Below are positions 1-4,455 of a DNA stretch of 4,455 nt, piece by piece. Source of the stretch: a virus (lineage: Duplodnaviria > Heunggongvirae > Uroviricota > Caudoviricetes). Location of the stretch: the IMG/VR virus record IMGVR_UViG_2657245015_000009, one strand, 5' to 3'. The translations under genes and the position numbers were made by a program. The notes below the pieces were generated by a model. That model was not told the origin of the DNA. It did no database searches and saw only the letters and a program-made list of their open reading frames with translations. The stretch's first letter is position 1; each line of letters begins with the position of its first letter.

Positions 1-2445
<2,445 letters not shown>

Positions 2446-2450
2446 TCACG

Positions 2451-2454
2451 CTCC
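2451..2454 (-). promoter_or_regulatory. Shine-Dalgarno (GGAG) for J, 8-nt spacer to ATG
   Basis: Minus strand reads GGAG-CGTGAGGA-ATG; the spacer itself contains GAGGA abutting the ATG. Confidence 0.6.
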
Positions 2455-2464
2455 ATAAACGACA

Positions 2465-2484
2465 AAACCGCCCGCAGGCGGTTT
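2465..2484 (-). terminator. Perfect 8-bp stem / 4-nt loop hairpin in the I-J intergenic gap, followed on the minus strand by a U-rich run; possible weak intrinsic terminator, attenuator or mRNA-stability element
   Basis: Forward 2465..2472 aaaccgcc pairs with 2477..2484 ggcggttt, loop cgca. On the minus-strand transcript the hairpin is followed by UUUUGUCGUUUAU and then the J SD. The GC core is only 5 bp, so termination is likely partial at best. Confidence 0.3.
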
Positions 2485-2502
2485 CACATAAAACATTTTG
2501 CA

Positions 2503-3174
2503 TCAGCGACCAATCACCACAACCTGACCACCGTCCCCTTCATCTGCCGTGCTAATCTCCTGAGAGACAACACGTGACCCCACGCGCATTTCACCGTACA
2601 GAACGGGCAGAACATTGCCCTGGGCAACCATGTTATCCAGGGAGGAGAAATAGGTGTTCTGTTTGCCGTTATCCGTTGTCTGTGTACGGGGAGTTCTGGC
2701 TTTCGGTGCCAGCATCTGCGCCACACCACCGAGCACCATACTGGCACCGAGAGAAAACAGGATGCCGGTCATACCACCGGCCCCAATGGCTGCCCCCCAT
2801 GCTGCAAGGGTGGCTCCGGCAGTAAAGAATGATCCGGCAATGGCGGCTGCCCCCAGGACAATCTGGAATACACCACCTGACTTGGCCCCGGCGACTCTGG
2901 GAACAATATGAATCACAGCGCCATCAGGCAGAGTCTCATGTAACTGCGCCGTTAACCCGGACGTGCTGACGTCCCGCCCGGCAATCCGTACCTGATACCA
3001 GCCGTCGCTCAGTTTCTGACGAAACGCCGGGAGCTGTGTGGCCAGTGCCCGGATGGCTTCAGCCCCCGTTTTCACACGAAGGTCGATGCGGCGACCAAAT
3101 CGTTGTAAATCCCCGTAAAGGCAGATGCGCGCCATGCCCGGTGACGCCAGAGGGAGTGTGTGCGTCGCTGCCAT
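2503..3174 (-). CDS. I: Tail tip assembly protein I (lambda gpI-like), 223 aa, ubiquitin-like beta-grasp N-terminal domain ending in Gly-Gly followed by a Gly/Ala-rich hydrophobic segment
   Basis: Complete ORF in track (223 aa, [29 protein letters not shown]...), recognised as lambda gpI; same length as lambda I. Start ATG 3174..3172 with a GAGG-type SD about 11 nt upstream. Sits 60 nt upstream of J, as in lambda. Confidence 0.93.
   Translation of the reverse strand: MAATHTLPLASPGMARICLYGDLQRFGRRIDLRVKTGAEAIRALATQLPAFRQKLSDGWYQVRIAGRDVSTSGLTAQLHETLPDGAVIHIVPRVAGAKSGGVFQIVLGAAAIAGSFFTAGATLAAWGAAIGAGGMTGILFSLGASMVLGGVAQMLAPKARTPRTQTTDNGKQNTYFSSLDNMVAQGNVLPVLYGEMRVGSRVVSQEISTADEGDGGQVVVIGR
2707..2871 (-). 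other. Gly/Ala-rich hydrophobic segment of I (about 55 aa) with small-xxx-small spacing; possible membrane-insertion or glycine-zipper region
   Basis: VFQIVLGAAAIAGSFFTAGATLAAWGAAIGAGGMTGILFSLGASMVLGGVAQMLAP directly follows the GG and is followed by a polar C-terminal domain. Confidence 0.5.
2872..3135 (-). other. Ubiquitin-like beta-grasp domain of I (approximate bounds), ending in Gly-Gly (codons 2872..2877)
   Basis: The segment from [14 protein letters not shown] to IHIVPRVAGAKSGG has the length and hydrophobic pattern of a ThiS/MoaD/ubiquitin-like fold and terminates in GG. Confidence 0.55.
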
Positions 3175-3815
3175 TTGTCGGTATACCTCTCTCGTTTGCT
3201 CAGTTGTTCAGGAATATGGTGCAGCAGCTCGCCGTCACCACAGTAAATGGCGGCATGATTCGGCACCGATGAACCAAAACAGCACAGCAGCACATCGCCC
3301 GGCTGCGCCTCTGTCAGTGCGACACGGTAAAAACCAGTAGCCTCCATATTGTCAAGATAGAGATTCTGACCGTGACGCCACCAGTCATCCCCGCGATGAA
3401 AATTCGGCATCTCAATCCCCGCCAGATGATAAGCATCCCGGAACAGCGTGTAACAGTCCGTCACCCCGTGCTCAAAGCGCCGCCCGGTGAGATGCGGCAC
3501 ACAGCGGAACTTATGAATCGTCCCCCGGCAGACCAGCCACCACGGCAAATCACTCTGCACCTGCAGCCGCCGGTCAGCCTCACTCAGCCAGGGCAGACCA
3601 CCGGGGTGGCTGTGGACCAGCGCCACAATCTCACCCTGCATTTCTGCCTGCAGCCAGTCCTCCGGAGCCATCCGGAAATAATCCTCCGGCTCACCGGAAA
3701 TATTCACGCAGGGAAAATATCTTTCCCCCTCCGGCGCTCTCACCACGAAGCCGCACGACTCCGCTGGCGCACATCGCCGGGCGTGCGCCAGAATCGCTGA
3801 TTCTGTCTCTGTCAT
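3072..3815 (-). CDS. K: Tail tip assembly protein K (lambda gpK-like), 247 aa from the ATG at 3815; JAMM/MPN metallopeptidase domain fused to NlpC/P60 cysteine peptidase domain. Alternative internal start at 3671 would give 199 aa
   Basis: Track ORF 3072..3857 (261 aa) begins at a TTG that overlaps L; the first ATG (3815..3813, [14 protein letters not shown]...) lies 4 nt after the L stop. JAMM motif H-x-H-x7-S-x2-D present ([14 protein letters not shown]). NlpC/P60-like Cys (DCYTLF) and His (VPNHAAIY) present. Stop TGA at 3074..3072. Overlaps the start of I by 103 nt out of frame. Confidence 0.88.
3153..3485 (-). other. NlpC/P60 papain-like cysteine peptidase domain of K (approximate bounds); candidate catalytic Cys codon 3453..3455, His codon 3255..3257
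   Basis: Cys in [17 protein letters not shown] and downstream His in [17 protein letters not shown] fit the order and spacing of an NlpC/P60 Cys-His-His triad. Assigned by recognition, not alignment. Confidence 0.6.
3186..3189 (-). promoter_or_regulatory. Candidate Shine-Dalgarno (GAGG within AGAGAGG) for I, about 11-nt spacer, embedded in K coding sequence
   Basis: Minus strand reads ACGAGAGAGG-TATACCGACAA-ATG. The spacer is rather long, so this is tentative. Confidence 0.4.
3513..3812 (-). other. JAMM/MPN (JAB) metallopeptidase domain of K (approximate bounds); signature [14 protein letters not shown] at 3573..3614
   Basis: H-x-H-x7-S-x2-D motif read directly from the translation, with Glu residues upstream; domain boundaries are approximate. 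Confidence 0.7.
3682..3687 (-). promoter_or_regulatory. Strong internal Shine-Dalgarno (GGAGGA) upstream of the in-frame ATG at 3671 inside K
   Basis: Minus strand reads GCC-GGAGGA-TTATTTCCGG-ATG-GCT (Met63 of the track [17 protein letters not shown]...). This could drive a 199-aa K isoform or simply be the historical annotation start. Confidence 0.45.
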
Positions 3816-3819
3816 GGGA

Positions 3820-4455
3820 TTACTGCGAAAGTTTGTTAATGGAAAGGAAGCCGCCAAAGTTGCCGACGTTATTGCGAAACTTACAGCCGCTCAGGCATTT
3901 GCTGCATTTATCCTTCGTGATATCGGACGTCGGCTGGTCATATTCATCCGCGACTGCCGGACCGTGATAACCGCACTCATCACCGCGATAGGTCCAGGTG
4001 CAGGTGTTGGCCAGCATGATACGCCCCGGAAAAACAGCGCCATCCGTTTCCGTCGGCGTGGACAGTACAAAGGAGGCACTCACCGCGCTCAGTTCGCTGC
4101 ACTGCTCGATGCGCCAGCGGCTGATCACCTCCTGCTCCGGATCGGCGTCTCTGTTTCCGTTGACGAAGTTCACCGCATCCAGAAAACGGGCGTAAACCTT
4201 ACGCCGGACCACCGTTCCGCCGACCAGACTCTGCATATCTTCCACCATACCGGTGACCATGCCGTACAGGTTAGAGACTGCCAGCGTGGGCCGCGTACTG
4301 GTGCCTTTGCCATTCAGTTCAAAACCGCTCCCCTGAATGGCCCTTCCCGTCATGTGAAAGTTGAAACCACCGACGGCGTGGTTCAGCTCTCCGGTACCGT
4401 CGATTCCCAGGCACAGAGCGACCGTGCTGAAAGTATCGCCAAAGCGGTAGATGGT
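3820..4455 (-). CDS. L: Tail tip protein L (lambda gpL-like), 5'-partial: the N-terminus lies beyond the window end; C-terminal Cys-rich region present
   Basis: Track ORF 3820..4353 (177 aa, ...[18 protein letters not shown]...[12 protein letters not shown]...[12 protein letters not shown]...SINKLSQ) recognised as gpL. The same frame stays open upstream from 4354 to 4455 ([34 protein letters not shown]), so the track's Met at 4353 is internal. Stop TAA at 3822..3820. Confidence 0.9.
3883..4002 (-). other. Cys cluster in the C-terminal domain of L (Cys codons at 4000..4002, 3973..3975, 3904..3906, 3895..3897, 3883..3885); candidate iron-sulfur ligands
   Basis: The pattern C-x8-C ... C-x2-C-x3-C ([10 protein letters not shown] ... 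CSKCLSGC) is read from the translation; gpL-family proteins have been reported to coordinate an Fe-S cluster through C-terminal cysteines. Confidence 0.6.

What the first reader, a model, noticed from the sequence alone, without database searches (positions are those of the whole stretch)
2707..2871. Glycine-zipper-like hydrophobic segment immediately after the Gly-Gly of I
About 55 residues are almost entirely G/A/L/I/V/F/M/S/T with repeated small-xxx-small spacing (G127-x3-G131, G131-x-G133-G134, G137-x5-G143). This is long enough for one or two membrane-spanning or oligomerising helices. Its position right after a potential GG cleavage site suggests that processing could separate a soluble ubiquitin-like domain from a membrane- or channel-interacting C-terminal part, which may be relevant to DNA ejection or tip assembly.
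Basis: inference. Interest (0 to 1): 0.45.

Follow-up and report, generated by a model that had tools for sequence, protein, structure and literature searches.

The report
Lambda gpI hydrophobic helical hairpin
The hydrophobic stretch is real, but it is the already published pair of helices (H1 and H2) of phage lambda tail-tip protein gpI, which sits inside the closed tail tip around the end of the tape-measure protein and is released when the phage binds its receptor; it is not a conserved glycine zipper.

Summary
The window is the lambdoid L-K-I-J tail-tip block on the minus strand. Protein I matches lambda gpI at 222 of 223 residues. Coordinates 2707-2871 encode V102-A156. 52 of these 55 residues are G/A/L/I/V/F/M/S/T, inside a 59-residue run with no charged residue or His.

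The segment is already described. Lambda tail cryo-EM resolves gpI from residue 101 as two helices, H1 and H2, predicted transmembrane by TMHMM. They lie in the tip lumen next to the gpH C-terminal coiled coil and vanish from the map after LamB binding. Outer-membrane insertion is proposed, not shown. Removal of the ubiquitin-like domain by gpK was predicted in 2006, reported at a 2025 conference, and supported by mass spectrometry on the F-pyocin homologue.

My additions:
- The uncharged character holds in 52 divergent homologues, with G108, G143 and G150 invariant.
G131, G133 and G134 lie in a lineage-specific insertion at the inter-helix turn.
- GxxxG and strict glycine-zipper motifs are at or below composition expectation.
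- The MoaD-type C-terminal Gly-Gly aligns with G96-A97, not G100-G101.

Verdict: already known, low interest.

The parts
2503..3174 (-). Gene I (gpI, tail tip assembly / insertion / plug protein), 223 aa plus stop
   Evidence: ORF. Matches lambda gpI PDB chains 8iyk/8iyl/8k35/8xcg at 222 of 223 residues, with T165 here for I165. PF06805 E=1.1e-28. PHROG 32 'tail assembly protein'.
2884..3135 (-). Ubiquitin-like (MoaD/SAMP-type beta-grasp) domain, residues 14-97, ending in the conserved P92...G96-A97
   Evidence: Pfam PF06805 covers residues 14-97 and reaches the end of the model. AF2 pLDDT is 92-97. Foldseek matches SAMP1 3po0 (E=2e-4) and MoaD 3rpf_C (TMt 0.76). P92 is 100%, G96 96%, and residue 97 is A/S/G in 98% of 52 homologues. 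MoaD 3rpf_C residue 73 of 74 aligns with G96.
2872..2883 (-).
   Evidence: G100 is 44% and G101 85% conserved, and the length varies among homologues. The AF2 helix starts at residue 100. The published closed-state model starts at residue 101.
2782..2871 (-). Hydrophobic helix H1, residues 102-131, with invariant G108 and a semi-conserved G119-G120
   Evidence: AF2 helix 100-131 at pLDDT about 67-70 through residue 120, falling to about 53 by 121-130. G108 is present in 52 of 52 homologues. H1 is described in the closed lambda tip. It is not modelled in two other maps, which start at 134 or 135.
2767..2781 (-). Inter-helix turn, residues 132-136, with the lambda-lineage insertion A129-G134 just upstream
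   Evidence: AF2 pLDDT is below 50 at 132-135, between the two helices. Columns 129-134 are gaps in 30-41 of 52 homologues (37-41 for columns 129-133). In homologues, charges, Pro and indels occur only here or in the first 3 residues.
2707..2766 (-). Hydrophobic helix H2, residues 137-156, with the conserved core G143-A-S-M-x-L-G-G-V-A-Q-M-L
   Evidence: AF2 helix 137-155. G143 and G150 are 52 of 52, G149 is 75% and small in 96%. H2 is modelled in all lambda maps. These papers report trimeric gpI associated with gpH 818-849; in the F-pyocin homologue the N-terminal helices encircle the tape-measure C-terminus.
2506..2706 (-). C-terminal part of gpI, residues 157-223: the plug (159-175) and beta-strands that augment gpJ sheets
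   Evidence: Published structures. Disordered in the AF2 monomer, as expected for strands that fold only in the complex. F176, N181, G186, P190, G194, G199 and S204 are conserved.
3072..3815 (-). Gene K (gpK), 247 aa from the ATG at 3815: a JAB/JAMM metalloprotease domain plus an NlpC/P60 domain. It is the reported processing enzyme for gpI
   Evidence: Pfam PF14464 (E=3.5e-14) and PF00877 (E=2.4e-12). The JAMM motif [14 protein letters not shown] is intact at residues 68-81, window 3573-3614. A conference report states that gpK cleaves the gpI Ubl domain.
3820..4455 (-). Gene L (gpL hub protein), truncated at the window edge
   Evidence: PF05100 E=6.6e-81. Same gene order as lambda.
1..2442 (-). 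Gene J (central tail fibre), N-terminal 814 codons
   Evidence: Pfam FNIII-A_GpJ, Phage-tail_3, Ig_J and Ig_J_second.

Best explanation
Residues 102-156 are the H1-turn-H2 hydrophobic helical hairpin of lambda tail-tip protein gpI. gpI is made as a precursor with three parts: an N-terminal MoaD/ubiquitin-like domain (14-97), this hairpin, and a C-terminal plug and beta-strand region. During tip assembly the JAB domain of the upstream gene product gpK removes the ubiquitin-like domain. This acts as an assembly checkpoint. In the finished virion three processed gpI copies sit inside the tip cone. Their C-terminal strands are woven into gpJ and their plug loops close the channel. [quoted passage not shown] When gpJ binds LamB the hub domains move apart, the plug opens and the hairpin leaves its ordered position. 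It is then proposed to insert into the outer membrane at the tube mouth, ahead of gpH and the DNA.

Shown by published cryo-EM and reproduced here at the level of sequence and prediction: identity, helicity, trimeric location in the lumen, and loss of order on opening. Reported but not yet published in full: cleavage by gpK. Inferred only: insertion into the outer membrane and any pore-forming role.

The invariant G108, G143 and G150 most likely permit close helix-helix packing or the conformational switch. They do not form a periodic glycine zipper.
For: Identity: 222 of 223 residues match lambda gpI. The gene order is L-K-I-J with the expected Pfam domains.

Hydrophobic hairpin: a 59-residue run without charged residues or His, with KD19 up to 1.78. 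All 53 family members reach KD19 of at least 1.6. Charged residues occur only in the first 3 positions or mid-loop. AF2 predicts helices 100-131 and 137-155 with a low-confidence break at 132-135.

Published structures: gpI is resolved from residue 101 as H1, H2, a plug (159-175) and beta-strands. H1 and H2 are predicted transmembrane by TMHMM and are absent from the open state, where only residues 167 onward are seen. gpI 135-223 forms a tripod under the gpH coiled coil, and 137-152 is noted as hydrophobic. gpI 134-222 is bound to gpH 818-849 and described as having 'strongly predicted transmembrane domains'. In F-pyocin the helices of the homologue encircle the tape-measure C-terminus.

Processing: the JAMM motif in K is intact. 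The cleavage was predicted in 2006. A conference report states that gpK cleaves the gpI Ubl only after gpI joins the tip complex. The N-terminal region of PA0640 is absent from mature F-pyocin but present in assembly-stalled tips. The single gpI peptide in virion mass spectrometry covers 9.87%, which fits only the tryptic peptide 202-223.
Against: No experiment in the accessible literature shows gpI in a membrane. In the open state the helices are simply not seen, and the in situ tomograms lack the resolution to see them. A simple sum of Hessa apparent free energies over 19-residue windows is +1.5 to +2.7 kcal/mol. By that scale the helices are only marginal membrane spanners, because they are rich in Gly, Ala, Ser and Thr. 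H1 is ordered in only one of three independent lambda reconstructions. AF2 confidence for the hairpin is modest, pLDDT 52-70. The gpK cleavage rests on a meeting summary, and the exact bond is not given.
Confidence: 0.8

Rival explanations
1. The hairpin is purely an internal packing and tethering element. It forms a greasy bundle with the tape-measure C-terminus that recruits gpH to the tip initiator and holds it until triggering. After release it does nothing in a membrane.
For: The only states actually observed are the lumenal bundle with gpH or the F-pyocin tape measure and disorder after opening. The whole stretch 143-155 is conserved on every helical face, as expected for a fully buried helix rather than a lipid-facing one. 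The simple Hessa sums are positive. The F-pyocin authors assign the plug the roles of recruiting the tape measure and locking the tip.
Against: In the open state the residues following H1 and H2 point toward the outer membrane at the tube mouth. The complete absence of charge over about 50 residues in every divergent homologue exceeds what a protein-protein interface needs. Published TM predictors call both helices. This rival does not exclude the best explanation; it denies only the last step.
Confidence: 0.3
2. The segment is a canonical transmembrane glycine zipper. Its GxxxG-type stripe drives homo-oligomeric channel formation, as in VacA or MscS-type zippers.
For: Lambda gpI does contain strict motif matches A129xxxG133xxxG137 and G133xxxG137xxxS141, continuing through S145 and G149. 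The segment is 20% Gly and 51% Gly/Ala/Ser.
Against: The motif counts equal composition expectation: GxxxG 2 against 1.9, and strict zipper 2 against 1.36. The motif lies on the 129-134 insertion, which most homologues lack, and at the predicted turn. G137 is only 19% conserved. Across 53 family members the GxxxG z-score averages -0.63, and strict motifs total 21 against 46 expected. No Pfam Gly-zipper family matches even at E up to 10. The invariant glycines 108, 143 and 150 are spaced 35 and 7 residues apart, not 4.
Confidence: 0.05
3. The segment is a flexible glycine-rich low-complexity linker between the ubiquitin-like domain and a globular C-terminal domain. This was the 2006 sequence-based description.
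For: Iyer et al. described it this way. The central part, 112-136, varies in length and sequence even among close relatives.
Against: Three glycines are invariant and the motifs GGxFQxVLGA and GASMxLGGVAQML are strongly conserved. The helices are predicted and observed. The composition is hydrophobic, not polar low-complexity.
Confidence: 0.03
4. The hairpin acts mainly in the producing cell. It would insert into the host inner membrane or aggregate, and the ubiquitin-like domain acts as a removable solubility tag or steric shield until the hairpin is buried in the tip.
For: Full-length PA0640 expressed alone is unstable. Cleavage is reported to occur only after gpI engages the tip complex. 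The F-pyocin authors propose a steric-shield role for the N-terminal domain.
Against: There is no evidence for membrane association of the precursor. This reading explains the Ubl domain better than it explains the hairpin's own conservation. It is compatible with the best explanation.
Confidence: 0.15

Closest known systems
Bacteriophage lambda gpI (tail tip assembly / insertion / plug protein I; PDB 8IYK, 8IYL, 8K35, 8XCG, 9E7M)
   Same: 222 of 223 residues match, in the same L-K-I-J context, with the same Ubl domain, H1/H2 hairpin, plug and beta-strands.
   Different: One substitution, T165 for I165, in the plug loop and outside the segment. The DNA is about 96-97% identical to lambdoid phages such as 2B8 and ev243, so the window comes from a lambda relative or prophage rather than lambda itself.
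F-type pyocin tip plug protein PA0640 (PDB entry 25vf chain 9, probably this protein) and the 199-aa homologue in PDB 9L9P
   Same: Same family (E=5e-18 and 1.2e-20). Same N-terminal Ubl ending in IVP-x-x-GS-K. In PA0640 the hydrophobic helices encircle the tape-measure C-terminus, and the N-terminal domain is removed proteolytically in mature particles.
   Different: Only residues 127-200 of PA0640 are ordered. An H1 equivalent is not seen. It belongs to a tailocin that kills cells rather than delivering DNA.
Plug domain of phage T5 baseplate hub protein pb3
   Same: A trimeric tripod closes the tube at the same position. It is proposed to interact with the outer membrane after opening.
   Different: In T5 the plug is an insertion within the hub protein, not a separate gene product. 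No Ubl domain or JAB processing is described. The similarity is positional and functional, and I did not test it here.
MoaD / ThiS / SAMP ubiquitin-like proteins with JAB (JAMM) peptidases
   Same: The N-terminal domain has the same beta-grasp fold (Foldseek TMt 0.70-0.76). The tail is equivalent: P-x-V-x-G-(A/S/G) aligns with P-P-V-x-G-G. A JAB gene is adjacent.
   Different: Here the Ubl is fused upstream of a structural protein and is removed, not conjugated or thiocarboxylated. No E1-like gene is in the block.
Transmembrane glycine zippers (motif (G/A/S)xxxGxxxG or GxxxGxxx(G/S/T))
   Same: Hydrophobic helices rich in small residues, with one local motif match in lambda.
   Different: The motif is neither above chance nor conserved, and strict motifs are depleted across the family. 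There is no Pfam Gly-zipper hit.

Membership tests
Lambda gpI / Lambda_tail_I family (PF06805, PHROG 32) | N-terminal ubiquitin-like domain matching the family HMM above the curated cut-off | tested here: met
   PF06805: 100 bits against a cut-off of 23.8, E=1.1e-28, residues 14-97. PHROG 32 E=1.4e-83.
Lambda gpI / Lambda_tail_I family (PF06805, PHROG 32) | Full-length near-identity to lambda gpI | tested here: met
   222 of 223 residues match PDB chain 8iyk_I, E=2.6e-141.
Lambda gpI / Lambda_tail_I family (PF06805, PHROG 32) | Position between a JAB+NlpC/P60 gene (K) and the central fibre gene (J), downstream of L | tested here: met
   ORFs and Pfam domains. Same order as NC_001416. The K/I overlap is 103 nt, as in lambda.
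Lambda gpI / Lambda_tail_I family (PF06805, PHROG 32) | Uncharged hydrophobic two-helix segment between the Ubl and the C-terminal beta-strand region | tested here: met
   Composition and hydropathy. Conserved in 52 divergent homologues. AF2 helices 100-131 and 137-155.
Lambda gpI / Lambda_tail_I family (PF06805, PHROG 32) | Trimer in the tip lumen contacting the gpH C-terminus and gpJ | not testable with these tools
   Known only from published cryo-EM.
Ubl-JAB processing pair (as for ubiquitin/Rpn11 or SAMP/JAMM) | Beta-grasp fold of the Ubl | tested here: met
   AF2 pLDDT above 92. Foldseek matches SAMP1 and MoaD with probability 1.00 and TMt up to 0.76.
Ubl-JAB processing pair (as for ubiquitin/Rpn11 or SAMP/JAMM) | Conserved small-residue pair at the Ubl C-terminus that serves as the scissile site | tested here: inconclusive
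   G96 (96%) and A/S/G97 (98%) align with the C-terminal pair of MoaD (the sequence hit alone has E=0.77). G100 is 44% and G101 85% conserved. The actual bond cut is not reported in accessible sources.
Ubl-JAB processing pair (as for ubiquitin/Rpn11 or SAMP/JAMM) | Catalytically intact JAMM motif, E...H(S/T)H-x7-S-xx-D, in the neighbouring protease | tested here: met
   [14 protein letters not shown] at K residues 68-81, with upstream Glu candidates including E19. PF14464 E=3.5e-14.
Ubl-JAB processing pair (as for ubiquitin/Rpn11 or SAMP/JAMM) | Demonstrated cleavage of gpI by gpK | not testable with these tools
   Reported in a meeting summary. Supported by mass spectrometry for PA0640 and by the single C-terminal peptide in lambda virion mass spectrometry.
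Transmembrane glycine zipper | GxxxG-type motifs in excess of what composition gives | tested here: not met
   GxxxG 2 against 1.9 expected (P=0.61). Strict motif 2 against 1.36 expected.
Transmembrane glycine zipper | Conservation of the zipper glycines across homologues | tested here: not met
   G131, G133 and G134 lie in an insertion absent from 37-41 of 52 homologues. G137 is 19% and G127 50% conserved. 17 of 53 members have any strict motif against 44% expected, and the total is 21 against 46 expected.
Transmembrane glycine zipper | Match to a Pfam Gly-zipper family | tested here: not met
   No family matched the isolated segment at E up to 10.
Alpha-helical membrane-inserting segment | Hydrophobic stretches of about 16-20 uncharged residues above the Kyte-Doolittle threshold | tested here: met
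   KD19 maxima of 1.78 at 105-123 and at 138-156. All 53 family members reach at least 1.6. Simple Hessa sums are marginal, +1.5 to +2.7.
Alpha-helical membrane-inserting segment | Experimental membrane association | not testable with these tools
   Only hypothesised in the literature.

The most novel reading that the evidence does not exclude
The evidence does not exclude two related readings. First, the scissile bond may lie at the MoaD-equivalent G96-A97 pair, leaving K98-S-G-G as the N-cap of H1, rather than after G100-G101. Second, the family-invariant glycine triad G108/G143/G150 may mark a conserved metastable hairpin that switches from clamping the tape-measure protein to forming a trimeric six-helix alpha-helical opening in the outer membrane. 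That would be an unusual alpha-helical outer-membrane conduit, shared by lambda-like phages, T1-like phages and F-type tailocins.
Probability: 0.25. Interest if true: 0.45.

Novelty: already known. Interest (0 to 1): 0.12.

Why it matters
How a siphophage such as lambda crosses the outer membrane is still not settled, and the gpI hairpin is the leading candidate for the first element to touch or enter that membrane. The segment, its two helices, its predicted transmembrane character, its disappearance on receptor binding and the removal of the ubiquitin-like domain are all already in the literature (2006, 2023-2026). This finding therefore adds no new object. The small useful additions are the family-wide map of what is conserved (G108, G143, G150 and the GASMxLGGVAQML core), what is not conserved (the apparent glycine zipper), and the pointer that the ubiquitin-type C-terminus is G96-A97 rather than G100-G101. 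These can guide mutagenesis and mass-spectrometric mapping of the cleavage site.

Tried and rejected
1. Glycine-zipper reading. Tested by shuffles of the segment, by family-wide z-scores, by strict motif counts and by a Pfam scan of the isolated segment at E up to 10. Rejected.

2. The Gx5G periodicity I noticed in lambda: 6 pairs against 1.8 expected, P=0.001. It is not conserved. The family mean z is 0.63 and G114 is only 8% Gly. I treat it as a lineage quirk.

3. DNA-level repeats that might explain the indel-prone centre. Only short two-copy matches were found. Nothing usable.

4. Promoter and terminator scan of 2300-3300. One terminator-like site lies inside the coding region, at the chance level of 0.9 expected. 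Ignored.

5. Search for a full paper on gpK cleavage of gpI. Only a conference summary was found. I did not find the 2024 Structure paper that first described the closed tail in the searches I ran (an exact-title search failed on a term-length limit). Its content is cited through.

6. The T1 paper and the Adv Sci F-pyocin paper do not mention the plug or its hydrophobicity.

7. P0169, a 2783-aa hit with 23 stretches, is a repetitive junk ORF and not a poly-Ubl protein.

8. The Foldseek search of the whole AF2 model against the PDB returned only Ubl matches. It did not retrieve the gpI chains, because the C-terminal part is disordered in the monomer model. I could therefore not read the first modelled residue from coordinates.
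Full report
WHAT THE WINDOW IS. All long, domain-bearing ORFs lie on the minus strand.
- L is truncated at the window edge (3820-4455; PF05100).
- K runs 3072-3815 and carries Prok-JAB (PF14464) plus NlpC/P60 (PF00877).
- I runs 2503-3174 (PF06805, Lambda_tail_I).
- The first 814 codons of J occupy 1-2442, with the gpJ FNIII and Ig domains.

The DNA is 96-97% identical to lambdoid coliphages such as 2B8 and ev243. The gene order matches lambda NC_001416. Protein I matches lambda gpI, as deposited in PDB 8IYK, 8IYL, 8K35 and 8XCG, at 222 of 223 residues; the difference is T165 for I165. The exact sequence heads a cluster of 1140 E. coli sequences (P0006).

CHECK OF THE OBSERVATION. Coordinates 2707-2871 on the minus strand encode V102-A156. 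They follow G100-G101 directly.
- 52 of the 55 residues are G/A/L/I/V/F/M/S/T. The exceptions are Q104, W126 and Q153.
- K98 to K158 encloses 59 residues with no D, E, K, R or H. The rest of the protein is 22.6% charged or His, so the chance is about 3e-7 per start position.
- Kyte-Doolittle 19-residue means peak at 1.78, at 105-123 and at 138-156.

The hydrophobic stretch is therefore real and far from chance, and the quoted glycine positions are correct. The quoted spacing is not special. GxxxG occurs 2 times against 1.9 expected in shuffles of the same residues (P=0.61). Small-xxx-small occurs 16 times against 13.0 expected (P=0.09).

WHAT IT IS. The segment has already been seen directly.
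- Ge and Wang 2024 (PMC11101478) state that in the closed lambda tip gpI is resolved from residue 101 onward. It consists of two helices H1 and H2, a plug (159-175) and beta-strands. After LamB binding only residues 167 onward remain visible. H1 and H2 are predicted transmembrane by TMHMM, and the authors propose that they insert into the outer membrane.
- Xiao et al. 2023 (PMC10721106) modelled 135-223 as a tripod under the gpH coiled coil. They pointed out the hydrophobic stretch 137-152 as a possible outer-membrane contact.
- The Ur-lambda study (PMC12617516) modelled 134-222 bound to gpH 818-849. It speaks of gpI's 'strongly predicted transmembrane domains'.
- In the F-type pyocin, the helices of the homologue PA0640 encircle the last 33 residues of the tape-measure protein.

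My own AlphaFold2 run used a 61-sequence alignment. It gives a confident ubiquitin-like domain (pLDDT 92-97). It predicts helices 100-131 and 137-155 at modest confidence (52-70) with a break at 132-135. The C-terminal part is disordered in the monomer.

FAMILY-WIDE ANATOMY. An exhaustive HMMER search finds 3207 representative clusters at E up to 1e-3. I aligned 52 divergent members, 32-60% identical to lambda gpI.
- Charge. 41 of 53 sequences have no charged residue in the segment. In the other 12 the charges sit in the first three residues or in the middle loop. All 53 reach KD19 of at least 1.6.
- Invariant glycines. G108, G143 and G150 are present in 52 of 52. G149 is 75% Gly and 96% small. 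G119 and G120 are about 72% Gly, and P159 is 88% conserved.
- Conserved blocks. These are GG-x-FQ-x-VLGA at the start of H1 and GASM-x-LGGVAQML in H2.
- Variable centre. Residues 112-136 vary in sequence and length even among relatives at least 69% identical. Variants include WWNP and WMPG turns.
- Insertion. Residues 129-134 (AIGAGG) are an insertion, absent from 37-41 of the 52 for residues 129-133 and from 30 for G134.

G127 is 50% conserved and G137 19%. Only G143 is conserved.

Lambda does carry a strict zipper match, A129xxxG133xxxG137xxxS141, but 1.36 matches are expected from composition. Across the family strict motifs are depleted: 21 observed against 46 expected, with 17 of 53 members having any against 44% expected. 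The GxxxG z-score averages -0.63. No Pfam Gly-zipper model matches the isolated segment. The name 'glycine zipper' should be dropped in favour of 'hydrophobic helical hairpin with three invariant glycines'.

THE GLY-GLY AND THE PROCESSING. Iyer, Burroughs and Aravind predicted in 2006 that the JAB domain of K releases the Ubl domain of I at its C-terminal conserved glycine.
- K in this window has an intact JAMM motif, [14 protein letters not shown].
- A report of the 2025 bacteriophage conference states that the Davidson laboratory showed gpK cleaves the Ubl from the structural part of gpI, and only after gpI has engaged the tip complex.
- For the F-pyocin homologue, mass spectrometry shows the N-terminal region absent from mature particles but present in assembly-stalled tips.
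- In the lambda virion mass spectrometry of Xiao et al., gpI gave one peptide covering 9.87%. Among tryptic peptides only 202-223 (22 residues) fits that figure. This is consistent with loss of the Ubl, but it is weak evidence.

- The Pfam Ubl model ends at residue 97.
- P92, G96 (96%) and residue 97 (A/S/G in 98%) are the conserved tail. G100 is 44% and G101 85% conserved, and the linker varies in length.
- A profile of the Ubl region aligns G96 with residue 73 of the 74-residue H. pylori MoaD chain 3rpf_C. The MoaD C-terminal Gly-Gly would then correspond to G96-A97. That MoaD proteins end in Gly-Gly is established knowledge and was not read from the chain here. The sequence hit alone has E=0.77, but the same chain is a significant structural match, Foldseek E=4e-4 and TMt 0.76.
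- The published closed-state model includes residue 101. That would be impossible if the mature chain began at V102.

The true bond remains to be determined.

HOW IT MOST LIKELY WORKS. The precursor gpI joins gpL and gpJ in the tip initiator. gpK's JAB domain then removes the Ubl, which acts as a checkpoint or steric shield. The freed hairpin, mainly H2, lies next to the C-terminal coiled coil of gpH and is buried in the lumen. LamB binding moves the gpJ hub domains, opens the plug and frees the hairpin. The hairpin is then proposed to enter the outer membrane ahead of gpH and the DNA.
- Shown in the literature: location, helicity, trimer, and loss of order on opening.
- Reported but unpublished in full: cleavage by gpK.
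- Inferred: membrane insertion.

The main rival is that the hairpin is only a greasy clamp for the tape measure. The evidence for it is that conservation of 143-155 on all helical faces fits a fully buried helix, and that simple Hessa sums (+1.5 to +2.7 kcal/mol) are marginal for membrane spanning. The two readings are compatible except for the last step.

COMPARISON AND NOVELTY. This is lambda gpI itself, so membership is met on every testable criterion. It works like the T5 pb3 plug, as the authors state, and like F-pyocin PA0640. The Ubl-JAB pair resembles MoaD or SAMP with JAMM peptidases, but the Ubl is discarded rather than conjugated. The glycine-zipper family was tested and its criteria were not met. 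The novelty class is 'already known' and the interest is low.

LIMITS. No coordinates, multimer prediction or dedicated TM predictor were available. I did not find the paper that first described the closed tail structure in my searches. The gpK cleavage rests on a meeting summary.

Noticed in passing
window 3669-3815 (minus strand); L001 829-976: RefSeq lambda annotates K as 14276..14875 (199 aa), leaving 148 nt unannotated after L. In this window the K reading frame opens at an ATG 4 nt after the L stop and gives 247 aa. The Pfam JAB match spans residues 4-104 of that longer protein. The classical start, M49, therefore cuts off the first part of the JAB domain, including the upstream Glu candidates.
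   Followed up: partly
window 3072-3174: Genes K and I overlap by 103 nt in different frames, as in lambda. The protein database also holds K-I fused ORFs of 335-389 aa with PF00877 plus PF06805 (for example P0009, P0013, P0014, P0017). These are either frameshifted copies or gene-calling artefacts.
   Followed up: no
window about 2459-2490 (minus strand), between the I stop and the J start: A GC-rich hairpin, AAACCGCC-TGCG-GGCGGTTT, followed by TTGTCGTTT lies in the 60-nt I-J spacer. The 67-nt region folds at -21.6 kcal/mol. It looks like an intrinsic terminator inside the late operon, but the consensus scan did not call it.
   Followed up: partly
proteins P0004, P0005, P0007, P0011 (homologues of window 2707-2900): Single-member database entries carry tandem duplications inside the hydrophobic segment. 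One example is a repeated GGMTGILFSLGASMVL. Close relatives differ by 4-14-residue indels in residues 112-136. The centre of the hairpin is an indel hot spot, while both ends are fixed.
   Followed up: partly
window 2680-2682 (codon 165 of I): The only difference from lambda gpI is T165 for I165. It lies in the published plug loop (159-175) that seals the tip channel.
   Followed up: no
window 2707-2871: In lambda gpI the glycines fall every sixth residue (G108, 114, 120 and G131, 137, 143, 149). That gives 6 Gx5G pairs against 1.8 expected (P=0.001). The pattern is not conserved in divergent homologues.
   Followed up: yes
protein P0169 (hit of the representative search): A 2783-aa protein matched residues 10-63 of gpI in 23 stretches. 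On inspection it is a translation of a repetitive element, not a poly-ubiquitin-like protein, and is a spurious hit.
   Followed up: yes
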